63,474 nt of DNA from Candidatus Yonathbacteria bacterium RIFCSPLOWO2_01_FULL_47_33b (lineage in GTDB: Bacteria > Patescibacteriota > Minisyncoccia > Phycocordibacterales > UBA1550), in the NCBI GenBank assembly GCA_001823575.1, contig MHUW01000017.1, positions 1 through 63,474 of the forward strand, in the 5' to 3' direction. Of the stretch, positions 16,879 through 41,391 are shown in pieces. The translations under genes and the position numbers were made by a program. The first letter of the stretch is position 1. Each line of letters opens with the position of its first letter. The notes below the pieces were generated by a model. The model was given only the letters and a program-made list of their open reading frames with translations, searched no databases and was not told the DNA's origin.

Positions 16879-16983
16879 GAATGTGCCCGAGAGGCATATT
16901 TTCACCACTACGAGTTTCGCTGGCTTTAGCTGACAATGGGGAAAGTTCTTGCAGACACTCTAAGCTCTCCGAGAACAATACTC

Positions 16984-17340: not shown

Positions 17341-17858
17341 ATCAGAAAACCAATCACAATCTTGTGCTCTCCGTATATCCTACCAGTCGCGGCTATGCCT
17401 TCGTGCTTTTTGAAGGCCCGCAAAGCCCATATGATTGGGGTGTAAAGGAGATCAGAAAGAAGAACAAGAACGAGCAGACATTGAAAAGCATCCATGCGCT
17501 CATTGAACGCTACCGCCCAGACTACCTCATCATTGAAGACCACACCGAGCACGGCTCGCGCCGGTCGTCACGGATTCGCAGACTTTATCGGATGATTGCC
17601 CACCTTGCTGAAACCGAACAGGTCGAACTGTTCCGCTATTCGCGGCGCACGGTACGGACATGCTTTGAACCTGTCGGCGCGCGCACCAAGTTTGAAATTG
17701 CTCAGGCTATTGCGCTCCAGATTCCAGCCTTTGCGCACCGGTTGCCACAGATGCGCAAAATCTGGATGAGTGAAGACCCGCGTCAGAGTTTATTTGATGC
17801 GGCGGCGTTGGGGGTAGTGTTCTATATACCGGCCCCACGCGGAAACCCTAGTTCATGA
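17337..17858 (+). CDS. RuvC-like/RNase H-fold protein (possibly inactive), overlapping the XRE gene by 4 nt
   Basis: The pattern VLSVYPTSRGYAFVLFEG ... DYLIIED ... LFDAAALGVV resembles the RuvC layout. The first catalytic Asp position is Tyr. Confidence 0.3.
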   Translation: MNQKTNHNLVLSVYPTSRGYAFVLFEGPQSPYDWGVKEIRKKNKNEQTLKSIHALIERYRPDYLIIEDHTEHGSRRSSRIRRLYRMIAHLAETEQVELFRYSRRTVRTCFEPVGARTKFEIAQAIALQIPAFAHRLPQMRKIWMSEDPRQSLFDAAALGVVFYIPAPRGNPSS

Positions 17859-21216: not shown

Positions 21217-21325
21217 TAAGGCGGGGACGATAGCATAGATTCACACTAATTTGTGTGGTCATCGCTTGAGCGCACATTAGTTAGTGTGTATAGTTTTGCG
21301 TGTTACAGAAAACAAGGGGGTGGTC

Positions 21326-24039: not shown

Positions 24040-24468
24040 TCAGTTATGCAATATTTCTTTGTGATCCTCAAGAAATTCGACAATGCGGCGTTTCACGGAC
24101 TCTGGTTCTTTAAGCTCACATTCCCAAATAATAAGAGTTCTCCAACCAAGCTTATTTAGAGCCTCCAGAGTTACCTCATCCCGATCCCGATTGCTGTTGA
24201 TCTTTGCTAACCAGTACGCCGCATTCTGTTTAGGCTTACGCGCACCACGTTGGCAATCGTGTCCGTGCCAGAAACATCCATGAACAAATATGATTTTATG
24301 ACGACCAGCGAATACAAGGTCAGGTTTGCCAGGTAGATCGGCGCAGTGCAGCCGGTAGCGATAACCCATATTAAAAACGAGGCGACGCACCAGCATTTCC
24401 GGGCCAGTATCACGCCCTTTCACTGCACGCATGATGCGGCTGCGAAGCTCGGGCGTGCCTTCCTTCAT
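24040..24468 (-). CDS. vsr: Very short patch repair endonuclease
   Basis: It contains SRIMRAVKGRDTGPEMLVRRLVFNMGYRYRLH...PGKPDLVF...IIFVHGCFWHGH. Confidence 0.85.
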   Translation of the reverse strand: MKEGTPELRSRIMRAVKGRDTGPEMLVRRLVFNMGYRYRLHCADLPGKPDLVFAGRHKIIFVHGCFWHGHDCQRGARKPKQNAAYWLAKINSNRDRDEVTLEALNKLGWRTLIIWECELKEPESVKRRIVEFLEDHKEILHN

Positions 24469-25322
24469 GCGCGGTGAAGGGGTGTATCGTCCGATGCTGC
24501 TATTTCTATCCCATTTCGCACAAGACGGGTGCGCCGGACAGTTTCTGCTCCCTTGTGATTTACCTCAAGATAAACAGATGTTAGTTCGTCATCCTTGCCG
24601 CCAAATACATCAAACAATGCTTGGAGAAAGCCTACATCGTTAAGGCTTTGTGGTGGAGGCGCTGGGTTGTTGCGCACACTCGGCACCGTTGATGGAAAGA
24701 GATAAATACATGGCGGCGCAAGCCTGTAGTCGCCCAATTCCATCGCCTTTACTCTATCAAGCTTAGGGCAGGGCCGCGCCACTGTTCCGCAGAGAATGTC
24801 CCAAATAACCAATCCATCCACCACTTGAGAACGGCCGATGATTTCGGCGCTTAGCCGTGTGTGAATTCCCGACCAGGCACCCTTTCGGGGATCGGAGCCT
24901 TCATTTTGACACATGCTCCAAACGATAAACTCATTTGCATTCGCTGGCCGGTCAAAAATGTTCGTGTTGTTTCCGTCAAGACATCCTTTGAGTTCAATAA
25001 CGGCTGTTCGCCCGTTGGGAAGGCGAACCTGATAATCATGGCGATTATCTTCTCCCGCAGATTTCCAGTCAGCAATCGCGTCTTTTGCTTTCATGTAGTC
25101 CAACACCGTAGCAACGAAGGCACGCTTGTACTTCATCGTCGCGGCTTGTTGACCACGTACACGTTCGATTGCCCCACGAAAGAGGCCGCTTTGATAAAAG
25201 TTTTGTTCGTCTAGGCCATGGTTACCCAACTTGTGCGCTTCATGTTTCAGCGTTTCTGCAAATTCGACAATTAGTTTCCGCAGTGCCGGATTTTTCTCAC
25301 AAGGGGTTATGGGAGAACTCAT
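24465..25322 (-). CDS. Putative type II restriction endonuclease (PD-(D/E)xK)
   Basis: It sits between the C5-methyltransferase and vsr and overlaps vsr by 4 nt. It has the candidate motif HDYQV...GRTAVIELKG. Confidence 0.5.
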   Translation of the reverse strand: MSSPITPCEKNPALRKLIVEFAETLKHEAHKLGNHGLDEQNFYQSGLFRGAIERVRGQQAATMKYKRAFVATVLDYMKAKDAIADWKSAGEDNRHDYQVRLPNGRTAVIELKGCLDGNNTNIFDRPANANEFIVWSMCQNEGSDPRKGAWSGIHTRLSAEIIGRSQVVDGLVIWDILCGTVARPCPKLDRVKAMELGDYRLAPPCIYLFPSTVPSVRNNPAPPPQSLNDVGFLQALFDVFGGKDDELTSVYLEVNHKGAETVRRTRLVRNGIEIAASDDTPLHRA

Positions 25323-25355
25323 ATAAAAACCTCAATCGGGAATGATATCGCGATC

Positions 25356-26522
25356 TTAGCTTAAATTCGGTTGGCCCGCAGTTTGGGCCAAGTGAGACAA
25401 CAGATGCTTGGCAAGGTAACGCGCTACTGGAACAGCAACAGCATCGCCCATGGCGGTATATCCGTCATTGTAGGAACCCGGCAGTTTGTATGATTCCGGT
25501 GCACCCATCAGCCGTGCGGCCTCGCGGACGGTTAAAAGCCGGGTGTCGATACGCTTTCCACGCTTTAGGACAATAACCTGGCGGCTGCTGCCGCCTTGTG
25601 CAGTCCGCAGGCAACCTGCAATATCGTCAAAGCGCAGTTCGAGAACTTGATTGCCTTTACGGGTGCGCTTGTAACCAGGCGCGACCGTAACAGCCTCTTG
25701 GCTCAATCGTTCCCAATGACTGCTTGGGATCATTCCTAATTTTTTAGCCGAAGCCTTTGGTGGATCGCAGGCTGCATCCCATTCAATGACATCCGATAAC
25801 GTGATTTTGCGTTTGCTTGGTTCAGGCATTTTCCACCATACCCAACCTTTCAATCCTTCTGCCGCCTTAACCAAAGTGTCCGAATGAGCCCAATTGGGGC
25901 CAGTATCGATCAGGTTAGCGGGAATCTTTGCCCCTTTCTCGACAGCAATTACAAATACTCGCTGACGGGATTGTGGCACCCAAAGAGACGCATCCAACAT
26001 AACAGCCCCTACGATGTAACCTTTTTTGCGCAAAGCCTCATGCAAAGCGCGGTAATGGATACCGCCATCGGCAGAGATAAGACCCGTCACGTTCTCAGCC
26101 ACCAAGAAAGGCGGACGTTTCGGCATCTCGTCCATAATCCGAAGCCATTGCCATACCAGCCCGCTACGCTCAGCGTGAATGCCAGCCGTTAGTCCGGCAA
26201 GTGACAAATCTTGGCAAGGGAAGCTTGCCCAGGAAAGAACAGCTTGCGGCAGGTCAGCACCATTCACATCGGCAATAGAACCTGAATGGAAATGTTTTTT
26301 CCCGTGGTTGGCAGTGTAAACAGCTGCCTTCTTCTCGCAGATGTCGTTTGCCCATGCAGGCTTGAAAAATTGGCTCAAACCTTGGGCAACAAGGCCGCTA
26401 CCTGCGAAAAATTCCAAGAATGCAGGCTTGGCGCGGCTGGTGCTCTTTTGAGCCGAACGCGGCGCTACTGCACTTGTCCCGGCATCACACTTGAATGAGA
26501 GGGAAACGCCTGAGCTATCCAT
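25356..26522 (-). CDS. dcm: DNA (cytosine-5)-methyltransferase
   Basis: Motif I is FLEFFAGSGL. Motif IV is SFPCQDLSLAG. Motif VI is ENV (LVAENVTGL). A late block, GDAV.VPV, is also present. Confidence 0.9.
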   Translation of the reverse strand: MDSSGVSLSFKCDAGTSAVAPRSAQKSTSRAKPAFLEFFAGSGLVAQGLSQFFKPAWANDICEKKAAVYTANHGKKHFHSGSIADVNGADLPQAVLSWASFPCQDLSLAGLTAGIHAERSGLVWQWLRIMDEMPKRPPFLVAENVTGLISADGGIHYRALHEALRKKGYIVGAVMLDASLWVPQSRQRVFVIAVEKGAKIPANLIDTGPNWAHSDTLVKAAEGLKGWVWWKMPEPSKRKITLSDVIEWDAACDPPKASAKKLGMIPSSHWERLSQEAVTVAPGYKRTRKGNQVLELRFDDIAGCLRTAQGGSSRQVIVLKRGKRIDTRLLTVREAARLMGAPESYKLPGSYNDGYTAMGDAVAVPVARYLAKHLLSHLAQTAGQPNLS

Positions 26523-28089: not shown

Positions 28090-31000
28090 TCAAGCTTTCT
28101 GCGCCCGCGAAAGCGAACGTGCAATCACCTGCGCGACTGCTGACCGCCGCTCGGCAACATCCTCATAGGACATCACTTGGCGGTTCACCTTGACCTTGTA
28201 GCCCCGCACGGTAGTATGGGTCGGCGTTACGGTATCCAGCCGCTCCAAGGCCGCCACAATGTCCTCAGGAGCGAGAAACTCTATGGGTACCACCTGCGCC
28301 ATTTCCCTCAATTTCTTGGTGATCTTTTCTCGCCGCTTGGCATCGGGGGAAATGAAGAGAATCTGGGTAAAGCCAGAAGCGAGGCATTTCTTCAAGTTTT
28401 CCACTTCGTGATCCACATTCGTCGTTATCGAAATCTCGCATGCGATCACCAAGGATTCCTTGCGGAGCACGATATCCACTTTGCCTCCGGTGACCTGCTC
28501 CTCAATGACCGCGCGGAAGCCGCGCTCTTCACCCAAGCGCTTTACCAAATGCTGGAGGTACTTGTGTTCCTGCCCACCTCGTCCAAGAGGTGTAGGTTCC
28601 GGCGGGGGAATGGGGCGAGACTTGGGAGGCGATGTTTTTACTGCGAGAGGTGGAGCTTCAGGTGTTTCTACGGCAAGAATTTCTCGCGCAGCATCGGACT
28701 CTTCCTGTTGTGCAAGGGGAGTGCTTGGAATCTCCGCAGGCGCTGCTTCTTGTGCTGTTGCATGCGCCTTGCGAAGTTCTTCTTCCAGTGCGGAACGAGG
28801 TCTGGCATACGCTTGCCGCGATGCTTCAAGTACCAAGACGCTCCGGGTGGCCACAACATCTGGCTCGATTTTTGAGGCCGGGAATGTTTTCAGGTTGAAG
28901 TCATTTCCGGCGCTCCCGATCCGCACCACCGCTTCACCACGAGTAAGGTTCTGCAAATCACTTGCTTCGAAAGATGCAAAGCCTCGGGCAAGGCTTACCG
29001 CATCGGTATGGTCAACCCGGAATACGATACGGGTATGGATATTGCCAAGGATGGCACTCTCTACCGGGGAGCTGTGAAGTTGAGAAAGCGTTTGGTGGGC
29101 AAGCGTAAGCCCAAGCCCGTACTTTCTCGATTCCGTAAGGAGGGACGCCATTGAAGGCGTCACGAAGTGTTGGAACTCATCAAGGTAGAGGAAGTAGGGG
29201 CGGCGGTCTTCCCTGGCCGTCTGTTGCCGGGCAAGGGCAAGCTGATGGAATTTGCTCACGAGGAGGCTGCCCAGAAGGTGCGCGTTTTCTTCGCCAATGA
29301 CGCCGTGGGAAAGCTTGACGAGGAGTATCTTCCCCTCGTTCATGATGCGGGCAAGGTCGAGATTGCCACGCCGTTCTCCCACCATATACCGGATGAGCTT
29401 GGGTCGGAGAAATGCATCTAGGCGCGTCAGGATCGGGCCAATGGAACGGGAGCCGATGAGGGGATATTCCTTTCCCCAGAAGAAACAGATTTCTTCATCG
29501 TGGATTTCCGCAAGGAATGCTCTTCTCCATGCGTCATCGAGAAGAAAGCGGCGGAGGTCGAGGAGCGTACCGCCCTTGGGATGTTCCAGCATAGCTATCA
29601 CGGCATTTCCCAAGACTGCGCTCATGGTGTCGCCCCAGCTTGTCGCCAGGCGCTTGAAAATTCCCACCAGGTCGGATGCAATGAGGTTCTTTTCCGCCTC
29701 GCTCCCGGCAGAGAGCATATTGAAGCCGATGATCCAATCTTCATCACCGGGATCAAACACCACGACATCACGCACCCGCTCTTCCGGGATACGGGACAGG
29801 ATGTCCTCGATCAAGTCACCATGCGGGTCGAAGACAGCGACCCCTTCGCCATGCTGCATGTCCTGCTCGATCATATTCAAAAGAAGGGTTGATTTCCCCG
29901 TACCCGAGGCACCGATCACATGCACATGCTGGAGCCGGTCAGGAGTGCAGAGTGTTGCTCGGGTGCTGATTCCCCGGTAGATGTTCTCGCCGAGTACCAA
30001 CCTGTGCCCCATCGCAATATCGGGGAGTGCCTTGGTGTGTTTCCGTTCCCGTTTGAGCGCAGGATGAGCTACGGATGCATCTGGGAGGTGGACGAAGCCC
30101 AAGAGTTCATCCAGGGAAAGGATCATCCCGGTACGGAAGCTTTGGCGGGCAAGCAAGGCCAGTTCATGGAGTTCGTCGGGGTACTCATCGTTTTCAAGCG
30201 GCACCAGCTCATTGCTGCCCGGTCGTGCAAACTGAAGGAGGAAGCCTCCCATCGACCGTGCCAGGCTCCATGCGCGCTCTTTGGTGGTTCCCTGTGCGGC
30301 AATGCGGAGCACCACAGCAAAGAGCGGCGTTTTCGTCTTGTCCCGTGCAGAGGGTACAAACTCCGGGGCATCCGCAAAGAGGGAGCCATTCCCGCCATCG
30401 CTTACGGCCTCCCGGATGCTTCGCTCCCACGGATTTCGCACCCGCTCAAAGAGCACCTGGAAGCAGGCCGTTTCGTTGCTGCCCGCTTGTGACAGCGCAG
30501 ACACTAGCGGAATGTAGGGATCGACTTTGAGGGAGTTTACTGCTTGAAGAGGAAGGAAGAATTCATAGGAGAGACCGAAATCAATGACGATACTCTCTCC
30601 GTCTTCATGCCACGCCTCCATGAGGATATCCGGCCCTTCGGTAACGGTCGCTTCCGGGACATACCCGGCAATGGTTTCCATTACTTGCGCCTTATCTGAC
30701 TCCCCACAGGTAAGCGTAAGGGAAACCTCTCCACCGTGGCCGACGATCTCGAAGGAGAGTGGTTCAAGCGCGGTGGAGAGGGCAAGTAAGAGTTTCCCGA
30801 GAACGTCCGCCTGTGCCGCAAAATCCGGGGGGACACTCACCGTGAGGGTGACAAACTGCTCGGCAGGGAGTACAGGAAACGGAGGCGCTTCCTCGAAGGG
30901 GGCGACTTCAGAATTCGCATTTCCCTTGAACAGGGTTACTACCGCATCCACGAGGGAAGAGAGAAGCGTAGGCCGTCTCCCATCATCAATCGGCCCCGAA

Positions 31001-31143
31001 GGGTGCTCAAGGTCAGGCAGCAGGAAGAAAGGACGGTACGGCGGCTCCAAGGATACCGGGTAGTCGGCAATATGCCAGCCACGCCCACGCATTTCCCAAG
31101 CGTAGAAGCTTTCCGTCACCATTTCGGCGGGGGAGCGAGACAC
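28090..31143 (-). CDS. Three-part protein: unknown about 400-aa N-domain, TraD/VirD4/HerA-like P-loop ATPase, Pro/Glu/Ala linker, C-terminal restriction-endonuclease-like domain
   Basis: The ATPase motifs are Walker A GASGTGKST, DPHGDL, Walker B FLYLDEFQ, and LAHQ. The C-terminal block is GGQEHKYLQHLVKRLGEERGF.AVIEEQV.GGKVDIVL....IACEISITT...EVENLKKCL. No TM helix is evident. Confidence 0.6.
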   Translation of the reverse strand: MSRSPAEMVTESFYAWEMRGRGWHIADYPVSLEPPYRPFFLLPDLEHPSGPIDDGRRPTLLSSLVDAVVTLFKGNANSEVAPFEEAPPFPVLPAEQFVTLTVSVPPDFAAQADVLGKLLLALSTALEPLSFEIVGHGGEVSLTLTCGESDKAQVMETIAGYVPEATVTEGPDILMEAWHEDGESIVIDFGLSYEFFLPLQAVNSLKVDPYIPLVSALSQAGSNETACFQVLFERVRNPWERSIREAVSDGGNGSLFADAPEFVPSARDKTKTPLFAVVLRIAAQGTTKERAWSLARSMGGFLLQFARPGSNELVPLENDEYPDELHELALLARQSFRTGMILSLDELLGFVHLPDASVAHPALKRERKHTKALPDIAMGHRLVLGENIYRGISTRATLCTPDRLQHVHVIGASGTGKSTLLLNMIEQDMQHGEGVAVFDPHGDLIEDILSRIPEERVRDVVVFDPGDEDWIIGFNMLSAGSEAEKNLIASDLVGIFKRLATSWGDTMSAVLGNAVIAMLEHPKGGTLLDLRRFLLDDAWRRAFLAEIHDEEICFFWGKEYPLIGSRSIGPILTRLDAFLRPKLIRYMVGERRGNLDLARIMNEGKILLVKLSHGVIGEENAHLLGSLLVSKFHQLALARQQTAREDRRPYFLYLDEFQHFVTPSMASLLTESRKYGLGLTLAHQTLSQLHSSPVESAILGNIHTRIVFRVDHTDAVSLARGFASFEASDLQNLTRGEAVVRIGSAGNDFNLKTFPASKIEPDVVATRSVLVLEASRQAYARPRSALEEELRKAHATAQEAAPAEIPSTPLAQQEESDAAREILAVETPEAPPLAVKTSPPKSRPIPPPEPTPLGRGGQEHKYLQHLVKRLGEERGFRAVIEEQVTGGKVDIVLRKESLVIACEISITTNVDHEVENLKKCLASGFTQILFISPDAKRREKITKKLREMAQVVPIEFLAPEDIVAALERLDTVTPTHTTVRGYKVKVNRQVMSYEDVAERRSAVAQVIARSLSRAQKA

Positions 31144-31157
31144 GGTGCACTCGGAGG

Positions 31158-31664
31158 CTAGAATCGTCCGAAGAAATCGCGCATCTCGGGCTTCCGCTCA
31201 GCCTCAGAGAGCGCCCGCAGTCCCTGCTTGGTCACTATCTGATCCAGTGCTTGCAGCACCGCCGCATGGGTGAGCGACCGGAACATGCTCTCCGTATCAG
31301 CTTTGTAGTAGGTGAGGGGCTTGAGAACGTTGCTGACGAAGAAGCCGAGGATGGGAATGCGGGCCACGAACGCCCAGAATCCTTTCTGTATCTCCCCGAG
31401 CCATGAGGACACGAAGAAGCCATTGCCGAAGGGAGCGGCACAGACATGGAATACGAGGGCATTACGCCGGATTTGCAGGTATTCGCGCTTAGCGGAGAGG
31501 ATACCGCCCTCGGAGAGGTTCACCCGCTCGATCTTGATATCCGTGAGCTTGTGAACCCCGAGCCCTTGCTCAATGGAATCGTAGAATTCCTTTGAGGAGC
31601 AGGAGAGTCCCTGCACCATGTTGCTCCAATGCGAAACAATACCCGTTGGTACGATCACTCCCAT
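31158..31664 (-). CDS. Hypothetical protein with one hydrophobic segment, in an operon with the ATPases
   Basis: This 168-aa ORF lies 14 nt upstream of 28090..31143. It has the hydrophobic stretch FWAFVARIPILGFFVSNVL. Confidence 0.4.
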   Translation of the reverse strand: MGVIVPTGIVSHWSNMVQGLSCSSKEFYDSIEQGLGVHKLTDIKIERVNLSEGGILSAKREYLQIRRNALVFHVCAAPFGNGFFVSSWLGEIQKGFWAFVARIPILGFFVSNVLKPLTYYKADTESMFRSLTHAAVLQALDQIVTKQGLRALSEAERKPEMRDFFGRF

Positions 31665-31812
31665 GATGCTCCCCCTTGGCCGTCCACTTTCGTTATGTGG
31701 TCATTATGCTCCCCAAATATCTTTTTGTTCAAGCACTTCGGAGAATGGCGTCCCGGCTCGTCGGGCTTGGTCTACAATTACTTTCTCCACAACCTCCTAT
31801 CTGCTTTTCATC

Positions 31813-32079
31813 ATGAGCATATATACCGACAGTGAATTCCAGTTGAAACCGGTCAAGTTCCGCACGGATTTTGATGAGGTTGATGAAAGGTGGGGCGTGG
31901 AACCGGCAGACCCGCGCACGGTTGAGTATGTCATTGCGCTCCCGGAGGTGCAGTTTTCTTCCGAGGAGGCTGCTCGGGCATTCTGTGCGTGGCTCAACGA
32001 GACTGGCCAAGCCGGGGATTTCTTTGACTTGATGTGGGATACGGTGAGAAAACCTAGTCCTCTGCATCAGCCGCATTAA
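31813..32079 (+). CDS. Small acidic hypothetical protein (convergent with the 418-aa ATPase gene)
   Basis: It is an 88-aa ORF from the ATG at 31813 inside track ORF 31618..32079. Confidence 0.2.
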   Translation: MSIYTDSEFQLKPVKFRTDFDEVDERWGVEPADPRTVEYVIALPEVQFSSEEAARAFCAWLNETGQAGDFFDLMWDTVRKPSPLHQPH

Positions 32080-32080
32080 T

Positions 32081-33268
32081 CTAAGAAATCTGTTCTTCGA
32101 TGGTATCAGGGTGAAGCGTCCGGGCGCTGAAGGGAGCACTCGGCGCACCGTCGATCATGAGTTTCAAGTAGATATCGTGATTGGGAAGGTTCACCAAATC
32201 TTCCACAGAGAAAACTGGCTCAAACTCGCGGGCGAGGATGAGGGCATCCTCCGGCCCGACGCGGAAGGTAATGATTGTGCCGACATTGGCGAGCACCGCG
32301 TGCCGCACATCCGGCACCAGTTGGTGAAGATGCTGGTGCGCAAGCACGAGCCCCAATTTGAATTTCCGCAGCTCGGAAACCATGTTCGCCACGGACAGTG
32401 TCGTGAAGCTCTGAAACTCGTCCAGGTAGAGGTAGAACGGATGGCGTCTGTCTTCAGGTAGTTCGCTTCGGCTGAAGGCGGCAAGGTTCAAGGTGGTCAC
32501 CAGTAGGGCTCCCAAGAGGTTTGCGCTGTCTTCACCCAAGCGTCCTTTGGCGAGGTTCACGATGAGGATTTTCCCTGCATCCATGATCTGGCGGAAGTGG
32601 AGGTCGGTCTCAGGTTCGGTGAATATGCGGTAAAGCCTCGGATCAGCGAGGAAGGCCCCGATCTTGTTCTGGATGGGGCCGATCATTTCCTGGCGGTAGC
32701 GGGGGTTGTAATGGGGGAATTCTCCTTCCCAGAATTCCCGTACCTGGATGTTTTCCACCTTTTTGAGCACCGCTCGCTGAAACCCGGTATCTGTGAGCAT
32801 TCTCAGTACATCAGGAAGCGTTGCCTCCCCATACTCAATCAAGGCATACAGGGTGTTTCTCAAGATGTGCTCCATGCGTACACCCCAGGCGTCATCAAAC
32901 AATTTTTTGAATGCTTCCATGAGGCCGGATACGGCCAAGGGAACCTTCTCCTTCCGCACCCGCCGCAAGGGGTTGTAGCCATACGGCTGATTGATGTCGG
33001 CAGCATCGAGGTAGATGAGGTCATCGGGGCGGTATTTCTTGATATGGGGGATGAGCCGTTCCGCCAAGTCCCCGTGGGGATCAACGAGACAAATACCCCG
33101 CCCGTTCTGTATATCCTGGAGCGCGAGGGTTTCCAGGAGCGTTGACTTGCCGGTGCCGGTTCTTCCGATGATGTAGAAATGGGAGAGTCGGTCATGTTCC
33201 TTGATCCCAAACCGTACTTTCCTCCTCTTGTTCGTCATCCCGAAGTAATTGATGTCTTTCTTGGTCAT
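32081..33268 (-). CDS. Soluble TraD/VirD4/HerA-like P-loop ATPase, paralog of the central domain of 28090..31143
   Basis: The motifs GRTGTGKST, DPHGDL, FYLYLDEFQ and LAHQ are collinear with the 1017-aa protein. The start is uncertain (33268, 33280 or 33337). Confidence 0.6.
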   Translation of the reverse strand: MTKKDINYFGMTNKRRKVRFGIKEHDRLSHFYIIGRTGTGKSTLLETLALQDIQNGRGICLVDPHGDLAERLIPHIKKYRPDDLIYLDAADINQPYGYNPLRRVRKEKVPLAVSGLMEAFKKLFDDAWGVRMEHILRNTLYALIEYGEATLPDVLRMLTDTGFQRAVLKKVENIQVREFWEGEFPHYNPRYRQEMIGPIQNKIGAFLADPRLYRIFTEPETDLHFRQIMDAGKILIVNLAKGRLGEDSANLLGALLVTTLNLAAFSRSELPEDRRHPFYLYLDEFQSFTTLSVANMVSELRKFKLGLVLAHQHLHQLVPDVRHAVLANVGTIITFRVGPEDALILAREFEPVFSVEDLVNLPNHDIYLKLMIDGAPSAPFSARTLHPDTIEEQIS

Positions 33269-33405
33269 GCATCCAAGCATACCGACTAGGAGCGCGACGT
33301 CACGGTGAGTAATTGTGCCATGCGCGCATATTCCCACGTCATGTAATTATTCGCCGTATGGTTAACTATGTATGTCGGGTTGTTCTTTAACGAAAGGAGC
33401 TCGAC

Positions 33406-33969
33406 ATGAATATGCATACCCGTTCTAACACTGAATTACTCGGTATTCTCATAGGGGAGAAGAAAGCAAATGGACTCTACACCTCGCTGTCATCCCTCAT
33501 CTTTGCCGAAGAGGGAACCAGTCTCTACTTCCTGGAGCTTGCCGCCGCACGGGAGCTTGTAAAGCGGTCGCTCAAGGAAGAGTTGCAGTACCAGGATGTT
33601 CTCTCTTCACCCGGTAATGTTATGGATTACCTCAAGGTGTCGCTCACTGGATATGGGCATGAAGTATTCATTGCACTCTTTCTCGATGCCCAGCATCACC
33701 TCATTACTGCTGAGGAGATGTTCCGGGGGACGCTCACGCAAACCTCGGTGTATCCCCGCGAGGTGGTGAAACGAGCTCTTGCCGTAAATGCCGCAGCCGT
33801 CATCTTTGCTCACAACCATCCTTCTGGGGTGGCGGAGCCGAGTAGAGCGGATGAGGCATTAACAAACGCACTGAAACAGGCGCTGGCACTCGTGGATGTA
33901 AAGGTGCTCGATCACTTCGTGGTGGCAGGGGCGGAGGTGATGAGCTTTGCGGAGAGGGGGTTGATATGA
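33406..33969 (+). CDS. radC: RadC-like JAB/MPN domain protein
   Basis: It contains the JAMM motif [16 protein letters not shown]...VKVLDHFVV. Confidence 0.85.
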
Positions 33970-34526: not shown

Positions 34527-36722
34527 CTAAAAACCTGGATAGCCGACTGAATGTAACAACGAATATCCGCGGTTAAGTGCCTGAGCATAGTTTGGGTTGG
34601 TTTTAGCGATGCTGTTAATTTTGTTTACCAGAGTGCCACCATTCTTCCCGAGCCCGTGGTACTCAATCAAGACTTGCTCAACAGCTCGCGCATCTTCCCT
34701 TGAAATGTTTTTAAGGCCAGGAATTTCGTCAATAGCGATTCCCTTCTGATTTAAGTGGGCACTTGCTCTTGCGCTTAGGTTATCTGAAATTCCAACATAT
34801 TTCACTTTCCCACCGCTGTCTACCGACTGATAAACAGATGTCTTACCCGAACTCGGGGCTACTTTATTTATACCACCTGTGCTCGCAGCGTCAACCCCGC
34901 GCGTCGTGGCGGTTTCAGCTACTTTTTTCTCAACCTTTTTTTCTATAACCTTTGCAACTACTTTTCCTCCCGCACCTACTAGTCCGCCGCCGGGGGTGAT
35001 AAGGAGGGCACCTTGTGCTACTTCTCCTGCCGTCTCAGCTGTCTTAAGTATTTTTTCAGCCCGTTGCTCATACTGTGCCTGCTCTTTCTTGTCCTGAGCG
35101 ATTGATTGGTTCGCGTTATTCGTCCCGGCAACATACCCTACCCATTTGCCTTCTCTCTTCATCCGGGCAATCGTACTCGGGGGGAGTTTCCTCGTCGCAT
35201 CATCGGGTGGCAATGAATTCATCCACGCGATTTCTGCGGGTGTTAGCACTTGTTGGTAGGTAGGTGATGGGGCTTGTTGGTTTGAATAAGTCGGGGTTGC
35301 TTGTTGATGTCCTACCGATGGTGTTACGGGCGATTTAGTTTGATTTAGCTTCGTAGCTGATGACGCTTGCTGCAACGGGGCGTTATTGTCAGGTTTGCGG
35401 ATTGCATTACTCTGTCCTACCTGTTGGTTAAATGAATTCTGCGTTGGTAAAGAAGGTGAGTTTGTGCCTAAGCTTGGTAATGCTGACCCATTTGTAGGTT
35501 GCTGCGTAGCAACTTGCGGGGGTTTTGGGGGTGTTTGTCTGTTTGTCGGCGCGGTTGCCGGTTGCGTTGAAACAATAGGGGGGCTCACCGGATTTGCAGT
35601 ATTGCTTCGAGCTTGCGACTCCCTTTGTTTGCGTTCCTCATCAGCGCGTGCTCGGGCTTCGCGTGCTATTTGATCTTGCTTTGCAGAATAGGCGGCACGC
35701 TCTTGCTCTTGGCGTTTCCACTCTTCTTCCTGCTTAGTACGCTGCTTTTTCTGTTCCTCATCAGCGCGTGCTCGGACTTCGCGAGCGGCCTGATCTTGTT
35801 TTGCCAAATTTGCTAGACGTTCCTGCTCTTGACGGCTGCGCTCTTCTTCATATTTAGCCCGCCGCTTCCTATCCTCCTCCTCGGCGCGCGCCCTGATGTC
35901 ACGAGCTTCCTGATCGCGCTTGGCCCAATAGGTGGCGTTCTCTTGTTCCTGCTTGGCGATTACTTCTTGCTTTTTGCGCTCCTCCTCTTCCAGTTTGCGT
36001 CGCTCCCGACGATCTTTTTCTTCGACAAGTTTTTGCCGAACATACGTGTTTGGAGCTTCTCGCAGGGCTTGCGCGATCCGGGGGGCTTGCTCTTTTACCC
36101 CACCAGTCGCACCTCGAAACAATGCACCCACGATGGGAACATTGGCAAGACCGCCGCTTTCTGAGGTTGAGCTGTTACCGCTATAGTCACCCCCTCCGTC
36201 TGACGAGGATTCGGTATTGCCCGAGAATGAAAGGAAACGAGGCTGCGAGGAAGATTGTCCTCGTGCTGTTTTTTCAGCCTTAGCGTAGTAGAGCGGGTCT
36301 TGGGTTACATCAACAGGGGAGGAAGTGATCGCGCCTTCCCGAAAATACATTTCACGGGCTCGATCTTGGGCTGTTTGCGCAATGTGTGCTGTCCCTGTCC
36401 AGCGCTTCCAGTTGTTGAATGTTCCTTCGTACCAGTAGAGCCCGGATTCTTCGGTTTCTTTTCCCGCTCCCGTCAGATAACCACTCTGGAACATTCCTTC
36501 ATAGGTAACAAGGAGCTTCCTCCCCGTTTTTGGGGTCATTTTCCCTACGACCACTTTACCGTAGCCATGTGCTAGTCCTGCATTGCAATTTCCGTTGAAA
36601 GAGGATTGCAAGGTCATGGTGTCAGGGAGAACAATACTGCAAGAGTCGGCGTACCCAACGGGTTGCGCAACTGCAAAGAAAAAACAGAATGCAAGAAATC
36701 GTAGAAATGATTTCATCGCCAA
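34527..36722 (-). CDS. Secreted polymorphic-toxin-like protein: MORN-like N-domain, charged coiled-coil repeats, P/Q-rich linker, C-terminal GIY-YIG-like domain
   Basis: It has a signal peptide. The C-terminus is SVYQSVDSGGKVKYVGISDNLSARASAHL...EQVLIEYHG...NKINS (GIY-YIG layout). It contains 40-aa tandem repeats AK.DQ.AR..RARA.EE. Confidence 0.5.
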   Translation of the reverse strand: MAMKSFLRFLAFCFFFAVAQPVGYADSCSIVLPDTMTLQSSFNGNCNAGLAHGYGKVVVGKMTPKTGRKLLVTYEGMFQSGYLTGAGKETEESGLYWYEGTFNNWKRWTGTAHIAQTAQDRAREMYFREGAITSSPVDVTQDPLYYAKAEKTARGQSSSQPRFLSFSGNTESSSDGGGDYSGNSSTSESGGLANVPIVGALFRGATGGVKEQAPRIAQALREAPNTYVRQKLVEEKDRRERRKLEEEERKKQEVIAKQEQENATYWAKRDQEARDIRARAEEEDRKRRAKYEEERSRQEQERLANLAKQDQAAREVRARADEEQKKQRTKQEEEWKRQEQERAAYSAKQDQIAREARARADEERKQRESQARSNTANPVSPPIVSTQPATAPTNRQTPPKPPQVATQQPTNGSALPSLGTNSPSLPTQNSFNQQVGQSNAIRKPDNNAPLQQASSATKLNQTKSPVTPSVGHQQATPTYSNQQAPSPTYQQVLTPAEIAWMNSLPPDDATRKLPPSTIARMKREGKWVGYVAGTNNANQSIAQDKKEQAQYEQRAEKILKTAETAGEVAQGALLITPGGGLVGAGGKVVAKVIEKKVEKKVAETATTRGVDAASTGGINKVAPSSGKTSVYQSVDSGGKVKYVGISDNLSARASAHLNQKGIAIDEIPGLKNISREDARAVEQVLIEYHGLGKNGGTLVNKINSIAKTNPNYAQALNRGYSLLHSVGYPGF
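35613..35924. repeat. 2.6 tandem copies of a 120-nt unit inside the toxin gene
   Basis: The anchor ttcctcatcagcgcgtgctcgg recurs at 35634 and 35754. The encoded units start at 35924, 35804 and 35684 on the minus strand. Confidence 0.8.
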
Positions 36723-37591
36723 ATTACCTTGGGAGCCGTGCTTGACTGATTGCTCTGGGGCGGCGAGGCGTTCGCTACATCATTGCTTGTTGCAGTTGTG
36801 GAATTTTGGTTAGTGTTTTGTGGCGACGGCGCAACCCCGTTTTGTTGAAGCTTATCATCTACCTTCTGACGGATGCGGTCTCTTACTTTTTCCTCGATTT
36901 GCCTATCAAGAGATATTGCGAATGCCTTAAAGATGGCGCCAATAACGGAAGGTCCCTCATCACTCTGGGTCGGTGGATTTGGGGATTCAGTAGTGTTTGT
37001 ATTGTCCGTGGCGGTGGAGAGGGGGACAAGTGTGCTTTGTTCTTGCGTGAGCAGCTCCTCGATTTCTCCGTTGGATGCAGAAGCGGCATTTTTTTGTAGT
37101 GTGGGTTCACTTGACTGTGTTGCTTTGGCAAGAATCGTCGCCTTGCCACCTGCATATTTCAGTTGTTCAACTGCGGATGCATACGTGATACCTGATCGTA
37201 GTGTGCCATTCCAACGGCGCCATTTTTTGAAAGTTCCTTCAAACCAAGAATATGTCCTTCCATCGAAATGTTGCTCAGTCCCTTTCCCGGTGAAGATTCC
37301 GCGTTTGAATGTTCCATTGAACGTTACGCTATGTGTTTTCTTACCACGCTTGGAATTTGTCCAAAGAACCGCGCGCCCATACCCCTCCGCAAGACCGTTT
37401 TTACAGTCGCCGGTGTAAGGGCTTGCAAGTGTCGCTCCTTTGGGTGGAACGATCTTACAGAGGTCTGCGTGTATTACTGGAGGATCTCTTGGTTTGCCTT
37501 GCGTAAGCGACTTGTAGACGACGCCGGCACAAAGCACTGTGACGAGAGATAGGAAAAGCATTACCACGCCGTATATTAATTTGTCGAACAT
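36713..37591 (-). CDS. Secreted paralog of the toxin N-terminal (MORN-like) domain without a toxin domain
   Basis: The block GDCKNGLAEGYGRAV...FNGTFKRGIFTGKG...SWFEGTFKKWRRWNGT parallels the N-terminus of 34527..36722. It overlaps that gene by 10 nt. Confidence 0.45.
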   Translation of the reverse strand: MFDKLIYGVVMLFLSLVTVLCAGVVYKSLTQGKPRDPPVIHADLCKIVPPKGATLASPYTGDCKNGLAEGYGRAVLWTNSKRGKKTHSVTFNGTFKRGIFTGKGTEQHFDGRTYSWFEGTFKKWRRWNGTLRSGITYASAVEQLKYAGGKATILAKATQSSEPTLQKNAASASNGEIEELLTQEQSTLVPLSTATDNTNTTESPNPPTQSDEGPSVIGAIFKAFAISLDRQIEEKVRDRIRQKVDDKLQQNGVAPSPQNTNQNSTTATSNDVANASPPQSNQSSTAPKVIWR

Positions 37592-40401: not shown

Positions 40402-40441
40402 TTAACATACATTCACAGCTATAGCTGTGAATGTATGTTAA
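40402..40441. repeat. Perfect 40-bp palindrome centred on AGCTATAGCT
   Basis: The sequence is ttaacatacattcacAGCTATAGCTgtgaatgtatgttaa. It ends 1 nt before the preferred ATG (40443) of the downstream gene and overlaps the first 11 nt of track ORF 40431..41003. Confidence 0.9.
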
Positions 40442-40442
40442 T

Positions 40443-41003
40443 ATGATTCTTATGAAGAATTACAAAAAAGGGGAACTTGCAAAAGAAATTCTCACAAGCC
40501 TCGCTGCCGGTGCTCTTGTGGTGGCCTTTGTTGCCATGCCAGGGCTTACAAAAATTGCACCTCTTTTTATGCCAAAGAGTGCCCGAGAAAGACAGAGGCT
40601 CAGTCAGTCGTTACGAGCTCTCAAAAGGAAAAAATTAGTGGATATTTATACCAAGAATGGCAACGAGGTCGTGGAGATTACTAACGAAGGTAAGAAAAAA
40701 ATTCTTGAATACAACCTTGATGAAATGAAATTGAAGGTTCCTCAAAAGTGGGATGGGTGGTGGCGCATTGTCATCTTTGATGTTCCAGAATCAAAAAAAA
40801 TTGCGAGGGATGCCATAAGTAGGAAGATAAAAGAGCTTGGTCTGTATCCGATACAAAAATCAGTCTTTGTTTCGCCGTATCTTTGTAAGAATGAAATCGA
40901 TTTTATAGGGGAGTTTTTTGGCGTGAGAGACCATATTATTTATATCAAGGCAAAAGAAATCGAAGGGGTGCGCGAACTAAAAGAACGCTTCGGTATTTCT
41001 TGA
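40443..41003 (+). CDS. PaaX-like / Cas2-fold domain protein with N-terminal hydrophobic segment
   Basis: The block WDGWWRIVIFDVPESKKIARDAISRKIKELGLYPIQKSVFVSPY fits the ferredoxin-like Cas2/PaaX_C pattern. The start is uncertain (40431, 40443 or 40452). Confidence 0.5.
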   Translation: MILMKNYKKGELAKEILTSLAAGALVVAFVAMPGLTKIAPLFMPKSARERQRLSQSLRALKRKKLVDIYTKNGNEVVEITNEGKKKILEYNLDEMKLKVPQKWDGWWRIVIFDVPESKKIARDAISRKIKELGLYPIQKSVFVSPYLCKNEIDFIGEFFGVRDHIIYIKAKEIEGVRELKERFGIS

Positions 41004-41311: not shown

Positions 41312-41382
41312 GGGCCTATAGTTCAGTGGTAGAATAGCGGTCTCCAAAACCGTTGACCGAGGTTCGAATCCTCGTGGGCCCG
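41312..41382 (+). tRNA. tRNA-Trp (CCA)
   Basis: The acceptor stem is gggccta/tgggccc. The anticodon arm is gcggt-ctCCAaa-accgt. The T arm is cgagg-ttcgaat-cctcg. Confidence 0.85.
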
Positions 41383-41391
41383 CAGAGACAG

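What the first reader, a model, noticed from the sequence alone, without database searches (positions are those of the whole stretch)
28090..33337. Soluble TraD/VirD4-like ATPase pair, one fused to a nuclease-like domain: candidate uncharacterised DNA-targeting (defence or DNA-processing) module
Three co-oriented genes form a compact unit. They are a 395-418-aa ATPase, a 168-aa protein with one hydrophobic segment, and a 1017-aa protein. The two ATPase regions are clear paralogs, collinear at G(A/R)(S/T)GTGKST, DPHGDL, F(L/Y)LYLDEFQ and LAHQ. This resembles the coupling-protein/HerA-FtsK clade. Neither protein shows the N-terminal TM helices of genuine type IV coupling proteins. No relaxase, VirB4 or pilus genes occur anywhere in the island. 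The large protein adds an unrecognisable N-domain of about 400 aa (it starts ...YAWEMRGRGWHIADYPVSLEPPYRPFF). It also adds a Pro/Glu/Ala-rich linker and a C-terminal block (GGQEHKYLQ...GKVDIVL...IACEISITT...ENLKKCL) that looks like a restriction-endonuclease fold. A translocase plus nuclease plus sensor-like domain is the logic of many anti-MGE systems. I cannot match this gene set to a named system.
Basis: partly seen in the sequence, partly recalled or inferred. Interest (0 to 1): 0.72.

Follow-up and report, generated by a model that had tools for sequence, protein, structure and literature searches.

The report
Membrane-tethered DNA-pump–nuclease module, likely defence
A widespread but unstudied gene pair, a small membrane-type protein plus a 1017-aa conjugation-type DNA-pumping ATPase fused to a restriction-enzyme-like nuclease (here with a second ATPase), rides on integrative islands in the slot where related islands carry restriction systems, so it is probably an undescribed defence against foreign DNA.

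Summary
Three minus-strand genes encode A (395-418 aa ATPase), B (168 aa) and C (1017 aa). A and C's ATPase region are paralogs (39% identity, E 2e-68) of the VirD4/TraD/TrwB-HerA-FtsK kind, and neither has TM helices. C's C-terminus is a confident PD-(D/E)xK fold with near-invariant acidic residues. C's "unrecognisable" N-domain has a VirB4/TrwK N-terminal-domain-like fold.

The unit needs correcting. B-C is the conserved core: B is present in 75/75 evaluable loci, and the nuclease domain in 96/98 full-length representatives. A is accessory (20/70 loci) and tracks a divergently transcribed RadC gene. Most B homologs carry strong TM-like segments, so the machine probably sits at the membrane.

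The family is large (599 clusters at E<=1e-30), spans many phyla, and was found only in MAGs among the 80 loci kept. It lies on integrative islands without relaxase or T4SS genes. In serine-recombinase islands inserted in comM, B-C sits beside the recombinase in about 30% of cases. Most of the other occupants examined were R-M-type genes or a STAND NTPase. No named system matches; PADLOC hits only mad8, and the other MADS genes are absent.

Best reading (about 0.55): an uncharacterised membrane-associated translocase-nuclease defence module. Main rival (about 0.25): DNA processing or transfer for the island itself.

The parts
28090..31143 (-). Gene C, 1017 aa: N-domain + VirD4/TraD-like ATPase + linker + PD-(D/E)xK nuclease. 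Core component.
   Evidence: ORF. Pfam TrwB_AAD_bind, T4SS-DNA_transf and TraG-D_C. More than 1500 homologs, the listed ones mostly full length at about 1000 aa. Architecture kept in 96/98 full-length representatives.
29989..31143 (-). C residues 1-385: N-terminal domain (DUF8128-like; VirB4/TrwK N-terminal-domain-like fold).
   Evidence: AF2 model pLDDT 84.4, pTM 0.82. Best PDB matches are TrwK/VirB4 chains, E about 1e-4, prob 1.0, TMq 0.36-0.41. BFVD matches to Bacillus phage Slash, G and JL proteins, E 1e-17 to 1e-13. hhalign to the N-terminus of a Bacillus plasmid DUF87 protein, E 1.6e-4, prob 50%.
28789..29988 (-). C residues 386-785: FtsK/HerA-superfamily P-loop ATPase of VirD4/TraD/TrwB type (Walker A K417, Walker B D655-E656, LAHQ 681).
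   Evidence: Motifs conserved across homologs.
28588..28788 (-). C residues 786-852: Pro/Ala/Glu-rich, poorly conserved linker.
   Evidence: Composition. Low conservation and gaps in the alignment.
28219..28587 (-). C residues 853-975: PD-(D/E)xK (restriction-endonuclease-like) domain. Conserved H860, E881, D890, E903, E913, N916, K919.
   Evidence: AF2 pLDDT 82. Foldseek hits AF1548 (1y88), R.BspD6I small subunit, R2 endonuclease domain, Bax1 and Can2. In 97 divergent representatives D and E are 97/97, the other two E 96/97, K and H 93/97. Weak Mrr_cat hit, E 0.029.
28093..28218 (-). C residues 976-1017: C-terminal tail (conserved RGYKV hairpin, then a long helix).
   Evidence: Secondary structure of the model; pLDDT is lower here. 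Conserved G and Y-x-V.
31158..31664 (-). Gene B, 168 aa: obligatory small partner of C, short form with one borderline hydrophobic segment (residues 96-114).
   Evidence: ORF. About 320 homologs, no Pfam family. Present upstream of C in 75/75 evaluable loci, within 250 bp in 68. 46/71 homologs have at least one strong TM-like segment, inserted at this position.
31703..31732 (-). Promoter-like site (TTGAAC-18-CATAAT) ahead of B, with a GGGGGAG ribosome-binding site before the ATG at 31664.
   Evidence: Consensus scan only, and the number of sites is not above the shuffle expectation. Sequence read. Weak evidence.
32081..33337 (-). Gene A, 395-418 aa: stand-alone paralogous ATPase (Walker A 58-65, Walker B 301-307). 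Accessory component.
   Evidence: Orthologs at 45% identity or more in 20/70 loci, adjacent in 15. They form a clade separate from C's ATPase: 45-77% versus 34-43% identity to window A.
33406..33969 (+). RadC-like JAB-domain gene, divergently transcribed from A. Recurrent companion of A.
   Evidence: Pfam RadC, E 1e-43. RadC is present in 11 loci, 10 of them with A, usually directly adjacent and divergent; the pair stays together even when B-C is 5 kb away in L013.

Best explanation
B-C is an uncharacterised, self-contained anti-foreign-DNA (defence) module carried as cargo on integrative islands. A and RadC form an accessory pair in the window's sub-clade.

Proposed mechanism:
- C assembles, like its VirD4/TrwB/FtsK/HerA relatives, into a ring ATPase that translocates DNA. 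This is inferred from family membership.
- Its VirB4-NTD-like N-domain docks the small partner B. In most members B has one or two TM-like segments, so it would hold the motor at the inner membrane, much as VirB3 holds VirB4. This is an analogy, not shown homology.
- The PD-(D/E)xK domain, on a flexible Pro/Ala/Glu linker, cuts the DNA that the motor engages. The fold and residue conservation are shown; activity is inferred.
- The likely substrate is DNA entering or being moved at the membrane: phage, conjugative or transforming DNA.
- A would act as a second motor, loader or regulator where it is present.

How self is spared is unknown. No methyltransferase is consistently linked.
For: 1. Domain logic is shown: an intact ATPase plus a PD-(D/E)xK fold with near-invariant D, E, E, E, K and H across 97 divergent representatives.
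2. B-C is a tight two-gene unit: 14-nt spacing in the window, and B upstream in 75/75 loci.
3. It sits in a cargo position. In at least 9 genome loci the order is B-C-serine recombinase next to comM truncated at residue about 351-357.
4. It is optional there. Of 41 loci of related comM-type recombinases with at least 4.5 kb upstream, 8 have C, 4 have ATPase-nuclease variants, 3 have only an A-like ATPase and 26 have none of these.
5. Ten large proteins from 8 of those 26 loci were scanned. They include type I R-M (L155), a PLD-SNF2 helicase plus an Eco57I/MmeI-type methylase (L137, and by homology L169), N6_N4 methylases next to large unscanned genes (L108, L118, L127, and by homology L121) and an HTH-STAND NTPase (L149).
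6. Other contexts are defence-rich: type II REase + C5-MTase + Vsr 1.6 kb downstream of C in the window, and an E1/JAB cluster, ORC-CDC6-like, N6-MTase and SIR2 around B-C in L088.
7. Split and shuffled variants exist: the N-domain as a separate protein, and an ATPase-nuclease without the N-domain plus an A-like ATPase.
8. No T4SS or relaxase genes appear in the close family's neighbourhoods, and only one viral contig carries the family.
9. The nearest defence model is Mad8 of MADS (E 6.5e-23). The published 'HerA/FtsK capture' concept proposes exactly such ATPase + REase anti-invader modules.
Against: - There is no experimental evidence, and no named system in PADLOC 2.0 matches beyond the ATPase.
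- The architecture is unusually rigid: 96/98 representatives have the same nuclease and no effector swapping was seen among the top 150. Many defence families swap effectors.
- The whole ATPase lineage comes from DNA-transfer machinery, and its distant relatives sit in conjugation operons.
- The islands with A also carry RadC, ArdC and NA37, genes typical of transferable elements.
- No self/non-self discrimination component was identified.
- The 'defence slot' argument rests on one island family and on 10 annotated proteins from 8 loci. One of the ten was a GGDEF-EAL sensor and one had no hit.
- Every one of the 80 genome loci kept is from a MAG, so no genetic system is at hand.
Confidence: 0.55

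Rival explanations
1. B-C (with A where present) is DNA-processing and transfer machinery of the island itself: a minimal, relaxase-independent conjugation or mobilisation device. The membrane-tethered VirB4/VirD4-like motor would pump the excised element. The PD-(D/E)xK domain would nick or linearise it in place of a relaxase. A would serve as a coupling protein to a helper's secretion system.
For: - The ATPases belong to the conjugation ATPase assemblage, and the N-domain has a VirB4-NTD-like fold.
- A distant relative (885-aa DUF87 protein) heads a Gram-positive conjugation operon next to a replication-relaxation protein. Sulfolobus and haloarchaeal plasmids also carry relatives.
- B is a membrane-type protein.
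- B-C sits directly beside the integrase in many islands.
- The architecture is rigid, as expected of a core machine.
- Islands with A also carry RadC, ArdC, DUF932 and NA37, and some carry Replic_Relax plus a primase.
- From my own knowledge, not checked here: MOB_C-type relaxases (pAD1 TraX, CloDF13 MobC) are restriction-endonuclease-like, so a PD-(D/E)xK relaxase has precedent.
Against: - B-C is optional among closely related comM-targeting recombinase islands: absent from 26 of 41.
- The proteins examined in B-C's place are mostly R-M-type or STAND, not alternative transfer modules.
- No channel, pilus, VirB6/8/9/10, peptidoglycan hydrolase or recognised relaxase accompanies it in the neighbourhoods annotated.
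- Most hosts belong to diderm phyla, where a cytoplasmic-face motor alone cannot move DNA between cells.
- A, the most coupling-protein-like piece, is missing from about 70% of loci.
Confidence: 0.25
2. B-C serves the island in competition or maintenance rather than host immunity. It would degrade incoming transforming DNA or rival elements (anti-transformation or entry exclusion) so that the island is not cured or displaced. This overlaps mechanistically with the best explanation but has a different beneficiary.
For: - Many carrier islands insert in comM, a natural-transformation gene, at one conserved position.
- B is membrane-associated.
- The motor is of coupling-protein type, suited to engaging transferred DNA.
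- Two copies occur on one contig (L071 and L080) and in one MAG (L020 and L023), as expected of element-linked genes.
Against: - Nothing distinguishes this from general defence with the data at hand.
- Islands that already disrupt comM would gain little from a second anti-transformation device.
- The window's island is bounded by tRNA genes, with no comM at either boundary.
Confidence: 0.12
3. The genes are decaying remnants of a conjugation system with no current function.
For: No other T4SS genes are nearby.
Against: - The reading frames are intact.
- ATPase and nuclease motifs are near-invariant over hundreds of clusters from many phyla.
- The B-C pairing is strictly conserved.
- All of this indicates strong purifying selection.
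Confidence: 0.02

Closest known systems
Type IV coupling proteins (TrwB/VirD4/TraD/TraG)
   Same: The P-loop ATPase domain is of the same clade by Pfam (TrwB_AAD_bind, T4SS-DNA_transf, TraG-D_C). TrwB is the best PDB sequence match. A ring DNA motor is expected.
   Different: There is no N-terminal TM domain and no relaxase or T4SS partners. NCBIfam scores (about 30-40 bits) are far below every equivalog cut-off (250-800). C carries an extra N-domain and a nuclease.
VirB3-VirB4 pair of type IV secretion systems (e.g. TrwM-TrwK of R388)
   Same: C's N-domain is structurally closest to the TrwK/VirB4 N-terminal domain. The layout is N-domain then ATPase. A small protein, membrane-type in most members, is encoded immediately upstream, as virB3 is before virB4.
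   Different: No sequence-level match to VirB4 families (TIGR00929 29.5 bits versus a 643 cut-off; hhalign to a plasmid VirB4-like protein is negative). B has no similarity to VirB3. There is no other MPF gene, and VirB4 has no nuclease domain.
MADS defence system (Mad8 ATPase)
   Same: The best PADLOC hit for both A (E 1.9e-19) and C (E 6.5e-23) is the mad8 model, over most of its 314-position profile. Mad8 is mandatory in the authors' detection model for an experimentally validated anti-phage system.
   Different: MADS is an 8-gene, roughly 22-kb operon with a methylase, kinase and specificity subunit, and mad6-8 are all mandatory. None of the other genes is present here, and Mad8 has no N-domain or nuclease fusion by profile length.
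'HerA/FtsK capture' systems and DndH (Aravind-lab proposal, PMC10853773)
   Same: The same logic: a HerA/FtsK-superfamily ATPase taken from mobile-element DNA pumps and combined with an active REase domain, in neighbourhoods that look both mobile and defensive. The proposed role is to intercept DNA during transfer, packaging or segregation.
   Different: The families described there are DndH, D5-helicase-linked and Orc/CDC6-linked systems. This N-domain + VirD4-like ATPase + C-terminal REase with partner B is not among them. Those proposals are also untested.
HerA-effector defence systems (Sir2-HerA, DUF4297-HerA) and NurA-HerA
   Same: A ring ATPase of the same superfamily working with a nuclease or other effector.
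   Different: Only Walker-A-level matches to the HerA models (E about 5e-5). Here the effector is fused rather than separate, and there is a membrane-type partner.
phrog_5156 / Bacillus phage (SPO1 gp27.4, JL, G, Slash) and Bacillus plasmid DUF87 proteins; haloarchaeal DUF8128 proteins
   Same: They share the N-domain + ATPase unit: phrog_5156 E 1.7e-65 over C residues 266-799, BFVD E 1e-17, and hhalign E 1.6e-4 to the plasmid protein.
   Different: In phrog_5156 and the Bacillus plasmid protein the match ends before C's nuclease region, so they appear to lack that domain. No B partner was looked for. Functions are unknown, and the plasmid version sits in a conjugation operon.

Membership tests
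Type IV coupling protein (VirD4/TraD/TrwB) | FtsK/HerA-type nucleotide-binding domain recognised by the family's Pfam models | tested here: met
   TrwB_AAD_bind: 38 bits (A) and 53 bits (C) against a cut-off of 20.5. C also passes T4SS-DNA_transf and TraG-D_C. TrwB is the top PDB hit.
Type IV coupling protein (VirD4/TraD/TrwB) | N-terminal transmembrane anchor | tested here: not met
   Maximum 19-residue hydropathy is 1.40 (A) and 1.37 (C), with no TM-like segment.
Type IV coupling protein (VirD4/TraD/TrwB) | Encoded with a relaxase and a mating-pair-formation (T4SS) gene set | tested here: not met
   None found in the window island or in 8 Pfam-annotated homolog neighbourhoods. Replic_Relax appears in 5 of about 80 loci only.
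Type IV coupling protein (VirD4/TraD/TrwB) | Score above curated NCBIfam equivalog cut-offs | tested here: not met
   Best scores are 36-41 bits against cut-offs of 250-800.
VirB4 ATPase | VirB4-type N-terminal domain preceding the ATPase | tested here: inconclusive
   Foldseek's best PDB hits are TrwK/VirB4 chains (prob 1.0, E about 1e-4), but TMq is only 0.36-0.41 and rmsd 7-11 A. There is no sequence-profile match to a plasmid VirB4-like protein.
VirB4 ATPase | Match to VirB4 sequence families | tested here: not met
   TIGR00929 scores 29.5 bits against a cut-off of 643, over a C-terminal stretch only. No CagE_TrbE_VirB Pfam hit.
VirB4 ATPase | Adjacent VirB3-type small membrane partner | tested here: inconclusive
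   B is always immediately upstream, and 46/71 homologs have TM-like segments. B has no detectable similarity to VirB3 or to any Pfam family, and its structure was not predicted.
MADS defence system | Mad8-like ATPase | tested here: met
   PADLOC mad8: E 1.9e-19 (A) and 6.5e-23 (C).
MADS defence system | mad6 and mad7 (mandatory) and the methylase, kinase and specificity genes in the same operon | tested here: not met
   B has no PADLOC hit. Ten neighbours gave only type II REase and C5-MTase hits. The definition comes from the MADS preprint.
PD-(D/E)xK nuclease superfamily | alpha-beta-beta-beta-alpha-beta core fold | tested here: met
   The AF2 model (pLDDT 82) has this topology. Foldseek hits AF1548, the R.BspD6I small subunit, the R2 endonuclease domain, Bax1 and Can2 at prob 0.95-1.0.
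PD-(D/E)xK nuclease superfamily | Catalytic D ... (D/E)xK motif | tested here: inconclusive
   D890 and E903 are invariant (97/97), but the third position is E-x-S. An invariant-like K919 (93/97) lies in the following helix, possibly a migrated lysine. Activity was not tested.
HerA-effector defence systems (Sir2-HerA, DUF4297-HerA) | Match to HerA defence models over the whole ATPase | tested here: not met
   PADLOC and NCBIfam HerA hits are limited to about 40 residues around Walker A, or are at E about 1e-3 to 1e-5.
'HerA/FtsK capture' anti-invader systems (concept) | HerA/FtsK-superfamily ATPase combined with an apparently active REase domain in a mobile, defence-like neighbourhood | tested here: met
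   The concept is read. It is a descriptive class with no formal definition or experimental basis.

The most novel reading that the evidence does not exclude
A conjugation-derived motor has been turned into an immune sentinel. On this reading, a VirB3/VirB4-like pair (B plus C's N-domain and ATPase), stripped of the rest of the secretion system and fused to a restriction-type nuclease, sits at the inner membrane. There it captures and cuts DNA as it enters the cell, whether from phage injection, conjugation or transformation. It would be a widespread defence class (hundreds of clusters across many phyla, so far seen only in uncultured lineages) that recognises foreign DNA by its route of entry rather than by sequence or modification.
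Probability: 0.3. Interest if true: 0.85.

Novelty: new variant of a known kind. Interest (0 to 1): 0.64.

Why it matters
If B-C is a defence system, it adds a new architecture to the translocase-plus-nuclease theme: a membrane-tethered, conjugation-type ring ATPase with a fused restriction-like nuclease and no modification partner. That raises the question of how it tells foreign DNA from self, possibly by where and how the DNA enters.

It would also be a concrete, testable case of the proposed 'HerA/FtsK capture' idea, and an example of secretion-system parts being reused for immunity.

The family is large and phylogenetically broad, yet it was absent from cultured isolates among the 80 best genome hits. 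It is therefore invisible to screens based on model organisms.

The work also shows that serine-recombinase islands inserting at one conserved position of comM carry exchangeable cargo next to the recombinase, much of it defence-type. That slot could be mined for further systems.

If the rival is right instead, it would be a relaxase-free, T4SS-free DNA-transfer device in diderm bacteria, which would be at least as interesting.

Tried and rejected
- **MADS membership.** Suggested by the PADLOC mad8 hits. Rejected because no other MADS gene is present and MADS is an 8-gene operon with mad6-8 mandatory.
- **MANTIS/Gao_RL 'dual ATPase'.** Read and found unrelated: it uses an AAA+ ATPase and an SF2-PLD effector.
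- **B-C as the obligatory core of comM-targeting islands.** Suggested by the B-C-recombinase|comM layout. Rejected by the reverse test.
- **L071 as a complete 9-kb minimal element.** The comM duplication brackets B-C, but the segment holds no recombinase. Its other genes are a PtuA-like ABC ATPase and a radical-SAM enzyme, so I describe it only as a comM-site island segment.
- **Sequence-level identification of B.** Pfam, PADLOC, NCBIfam and PHROGs gave nothing.
- **Profile search of the nuclease domain against PDB sequences.** It gave only marginal hits: 6ahx at E 0.03 and AF1548 at E 0.23. The fold search was needed.
- **Antisense 88-aa ORF in the A-B gap (31813-32079).** No homolog in any fetched locus and no ribosome-binding site, so probably not a gene.
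- **Literature searches.** Searches for DUF8128, for coupling-protein-like defence systems and for comM serine-recombinase islands found no description of this family.
- **Phage carriage.** Only one IMG/VR contig carries the family.
- **Host identity of the window.** Not determined. The closest syntenic island (69% identical C) is in a Patescibacteria MAG, which is only a hint.

Full report
**1. The observation**

- A: 32081-33337, 418 aa from a GTG. The ATG at 33268 gives 395 aa, which matches homolog lengths.
- B: 31158-31664, 168 aa.
- C: 28090-31143, 1017 aa.

A aligns to C residues 402-763 at 39% identity over 372 aa (E 2e-68). Walker A, DPHGD, Walker B and LAHQ are in register in both. 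Both proteins pass Pfam's cut-off for TrwB_AAD_bind. A also passes DUF87, and C also passes T4SS-DNA_transf and TraG-D_C. TrwB is the best PDB sequence match. Neither A nor C has a hydrophobic stretch that could span a membrane, while B has one borderline segment.

The region has the highest G+C of the window, 0.55-0.57 against about 0.44-0.47 in the flanking backbone. B and C are 14 nt apart. A and B are separated by 416 bp that contain a promoter-like site and a good ribosome-binding site for B. In this window B-C may therefore be transcribed separately from A.

**2. Anatomy of C**

I aligned homologs and predicted two domains separately.

- **C-terminal domain.** Residues 848-1017 fold with pLDDT 82 into an alpha-beta-beta-beta-alpha-beta core. 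Its best PDB matches are restriction-endonuclease-fold proteins: AF1548, the small subunit of R.BspD6I, the endonuclease domain of the R2 retrotransposon, Bax1 and Can2.
- **Catalytic-type residues.** In 97 divergent representatives, D890 and E903 are invariant, E881 and E913 are 96/97, and K919 and H860 are 93/97. The third motif reads E-x-S, with the conserved lysine in the next helix. The domain is therefore probably an active but non-canonical PD-(D/E)xK nuclease.
- **N-terminal domain.** Residues 1-385 fold with pLDDT 84 and pTM 0.82. The best PDB matches are chains of TrwK/VirB4 from the R388 type IV secretion system (E about 1e-4, probability 1.0, TM 0.36-0.41).
- **Where else the N-domain fold occurs.** In the viral structure library the same fold appears in uncharacterised Bacillus phage proteins (Slash, G, JL; E 1e-17 to 1e-13). 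PHROG family 5156 covers C residues 266-799 (E 1.7e-65). By profile comparison the N-domain is distantly homologous to the N-terminus of an 885-aa DUF87 protein of a Bacillus plasmid (E 1.6e-4, probability 50%). It shows no sequence match to that plasmid's VirB4-like ATPase.

So the N-domain plus ATPase unit is an old mobile-element module, and the nuclease is this family's addition.

**3. What is conserved**

- **C.** It has more than 1500 homologs in the word-indexed search, the listed ones mostly full length at about 1000 aa. An exhaustive profile search with the N-domain finds 599 clusters (at 50% identity) at E<=1e-30 and 2611 at E<=1e-3. Of 98 full-length representatives, 96 have the nuclease domain.
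- **Taxonomy.** A scan of one genome per species found 113 related stretches, of which the best 80 were kept. All 80 are metagenome-assembled genomes. They include Acidobacteriota, Planctomycetota, Bacteroidota, Binatia, Burkholderiales, Bdellovibrionales, Verrucomicrobiota and Patescibacteria.
- **B.** It is present upstream of C in 75 of 75 evaluable loci, and within 250 bp in 68.
- **A.** An ortholog (45% identity or more) is present in only 20 of 70 loci and adjacent in 15. A orthologs form their own clade, 45-77% identical to window A, against 34-43% for the C ATPase regions. The duplication is therefore old.
- **RadC.** It occurs in 11 loci, 10 of which also have A. It is usually directly adjacent to A and divergent from it. 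In L013 the RadC-A pair stays together 5 kb away from B-C.

The conserved core is therefore B-C, and A plus RadC is an accessory pair of the window's sub-clade.

**4. B is a membrane-type partner**

B has about 320 homologs and matches no family in any library. The alignment shows that longer B variants (about 220-250 aa) carry an insertion of strongly hydrophobic segments. The insertion lies exactly where the window's short B has its weakly hydrophobic stretch. Of 71 B proteins, 46 have at least one strong TM-like segment and 22 have two or more.

A small membrane protein encoded immediately before a protein with a VirB4-like N-domain recalls virB3-virB4. That is an analogy only, because B shows no similarity to VirB3.

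**5. Genomic context**

The window's island lies between ClpB/tRNA-Tyr and tRNA-Trp/MiaA, at about 9.1-41 kb. Its recognisable genes are:
- two large serine recombinases (9111-10790 and 21284-23131);
- an XRE plus RuvC-like pair;
- an NA37 nucleoid protein;
- a type II REase + C5-methylase + Vsr cassette (24040-26522);
- RadC.

No relaxase or T4SS gene was recognised.

The closest relative (69% identical C, in a Patescibacteria MAG) is syntenic and adds ArdC. Across 78 loci the recurrent neighbours are as follows:

| Neighbour | Loci |
|---|---|
| Large serine recombinase | 26 |
| RuvC-like protein | 15 |
| Truncated ComM | 14 |
| RadC | 11 |
| Tyrosine integrase (by sequence inspection, not scanned) | 8 |
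| DUF932 | 6 |
| DnaG-like primase | 5 |
| Replic_Relax | 5 |

Eight Pfam-annotated neighbourhoods show no T4SS. Only one of 2.9 million viral contigs carries the family.

**6. The decisive context test**

In at least nine loci from several phyla the order is B, C, serine recombinase, then a comM gene truncated at residue about 351-357. These are islands integrated at one conserved site in comM, with B-C next to the integrase.

I then asked the reverse question, fetching 80 metagenomic loci of relatives of that recombinase (61-86% identity). Among the 41 with at least 4.5 kb of upstream sequence:
- 8 have a full C;
- 4 have ATPase-nuclease variants;
- 3 have only an A-like ATPase;
- 26 have none of these.

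I scanned ten large proteins from eight of those 26 loci. They turned out to be:
- type I R-M HsdR and HsdM in L155 (L133 has homologs of the L155 HsdM gene and of the adjacent, unscanned 411-aa gene);
- a PLD-SNF2 helicase with an Eco57I/MmeI-type methylase in L137 (L169 is homologous);
- N6_N4 methylases beside large unscanned genes in L108, L118 and L127 (L121 is homologous), which may be R-M systems but were not shown to be;
- an HTH-STAND NTPase in L149;
- one GGDEF-EAL sensor, and one protein with no hit.

B-C is thus an optional cargo module in a slot that otherwise mostly carries defence-type genes. L088 adds an E1/JAB cluster, ORC-CDC6-like, N6-methylase and SIR2 genes around B-C. Split and shuffled variants of the module also occur: the N-domain as a separate 499-aa protein, and a 659-683-aa ATPase-nuclease without the N-domain, in L100 together with an A-like ATPase.

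**7. Interpretation**

The best-supported reading is a defence or anti-mobile-element module.
- C would form a ring DNA motor. This is inferred from its family.
- B would hold it at the membrane. This is inferred from hydrophobicity and gene order.
- The tethered nuclease would cut the DNA that the motor engages. The fold and residue conservation are shown, but activity is not.
- How self DNA is spared is unknown.

The main rival is that the module serves the island's own DNA processing or transfer. In its favour are the lineage's conjugative ancestry, a distant relative at the head of a Bacillus conjugation operon, the rigid architecture, and the RadC/ArdC company. Against it are the optional presence of B-C, the defence-type alternatives in its slot, and the absence of any channel or relaxase.

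**8. Comparison with the known**

- It is not a coupling protein: no TM anchor, no relaxase or T4SS context, and scores far below the equivalog cut-offs.
- It is not a VirB4 by sequence.
- It is not MADS: only Mad8 matches.
- It is not a HerA-effector system.
- It fits the descriptive class of 'HerA/FtsK capture' systems proposed in PMC10853773, but it is not one of the families described there.
- Literature searches found no description of this family or of DUF8128.

I file it as a new variant of a known kind, a translocase-nuclease defence module, still untested.

Noticed in passing
window 24040-26522 (minus strand): A complete type II restriction-modification cassette with its repair partner: Vsr (24040-24468), a type II REase (24465-25322; PADLOC REase_II E 1e-115) and a C5-cytosine methylase (25356-26522). 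It lies 1.6 kb downstream of C and is a separate system.
   Followed up: partly
window 9111-10790 (-) and 21284-23131 (+): Two large serine recombinases in one island. The first abuts or overlaps tRNA-Tyr (9196-9279), which may mark the island's left end, or two elements in tandem. The att sites were not determined.
   Followed up: partly
L013, L019, L026, L027, L036, L042, L051, L069, L075 and many of L093-L172: Serine-recombinase islands from several phyla are inserted at the same position of comM (ComM residue about 351-357). The recombinase-proximal slot carries exchangeable cargo: type I R-M, a PLD-SNF2 helicase plus methylase, N6_N4 methylases, a STAND NTPase, or B-C. It looks like a cross-phylum cargo hotspot, much of it defence-type, that could be mined.
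   Followed up: partly
window 16936-17340 and 17337-17858 (+): An XRE-type HTH gene overlapping a 173-aa gene. The window copy gave no Pfam hit, but its cluster relatives match RuvC (E 9.5e-8). The pair recurs in 10-15 related islands, sometimes with a 431-444-aa P-loop protein (window 10856-12151) that has no Pfam match.
   Followed up: partly
window 18711-20923 (minus strand): An NA37 nucleoid-associated protein (19910-20923) is followed by an unannotated 399-aa protein. In the syntenic Patescibacteria island, the gene next to NA37 is a RelA/SpoT-domain protein instead.
   Followed up: no
window 31813-32079 (+), inside the A-B gap: An 88-aa antisense ORF fills most of the 416-bp gap between A and B. 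In L003 the equivalent gap is 61 bp. The ORF has no homolog in any fetched locus and no ribosome-binding site, so it is probably not a gene. The origin of the extra DNA is unexplained.
   Followed up: yes
window 34527-37591 (minus strand): Two adjacent genes (731 and 292 aa) share an N-terminal signal-like segment and a similar N-terminal region. The larger has long E/R/K/Q-rich repeats and a Pro/Thr/Gln-rich region. There is no Pfam match, and the region has a strong AT skew (about -0.29).
   Followed up: no
window 40431-41003 (+): A 190-aa protein with a PaaX central (Cas2-like) domain lies near the island's right edge, just before tRNA-Trp (41312-41383).
   Followed up: no
L088 5458-8013 and 14852-23057: B-C is flanked on one side by an E1(ThiF)/JAB/two-small-protein cluster resembling a ubiquitin-like (Bil-type) defence system. 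On the other side are PRTase-CE + ORC-CDC6-like, N6-methylase and SIR2 genes. Together they form a dense defence island next to a serine recombinase.
   Followed up: no
L099, L100/L101, L128: Domain-shuffled relatives next to comM-type recombinases. L099 has the N-domain as a separate 499-aa protein followed by a 683-aa ATPase-nuclease. L100 has a 659-aa ATPase-nuclease without the N-domain plus a 391-aa A-like ATPase.
   Followed up: partly
L071 6307-16769: An intact comM and a displaced comM 3' fragment bracket about 9 kb. The segment holds a possible AbiE-like pair (by inspection only; no PDB hit), B-C, a PtuA-like small ABC ATPase and a radical-SAM enzyme, but no recombinase. A second B-C copy (L080) lies about 70 kb away on the same contig.
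   Followed up: partly
L092 (Bacillus subtilis plasmid NZ_CP154917.1): A distant relative (885-aa DUF87 protein) is the first gene of a Gram-positive conjugation operon. It sits directly before a replication-relaxation protein, yet PLSDB types the plasmid as non-mobilizable.
   Followed up: no
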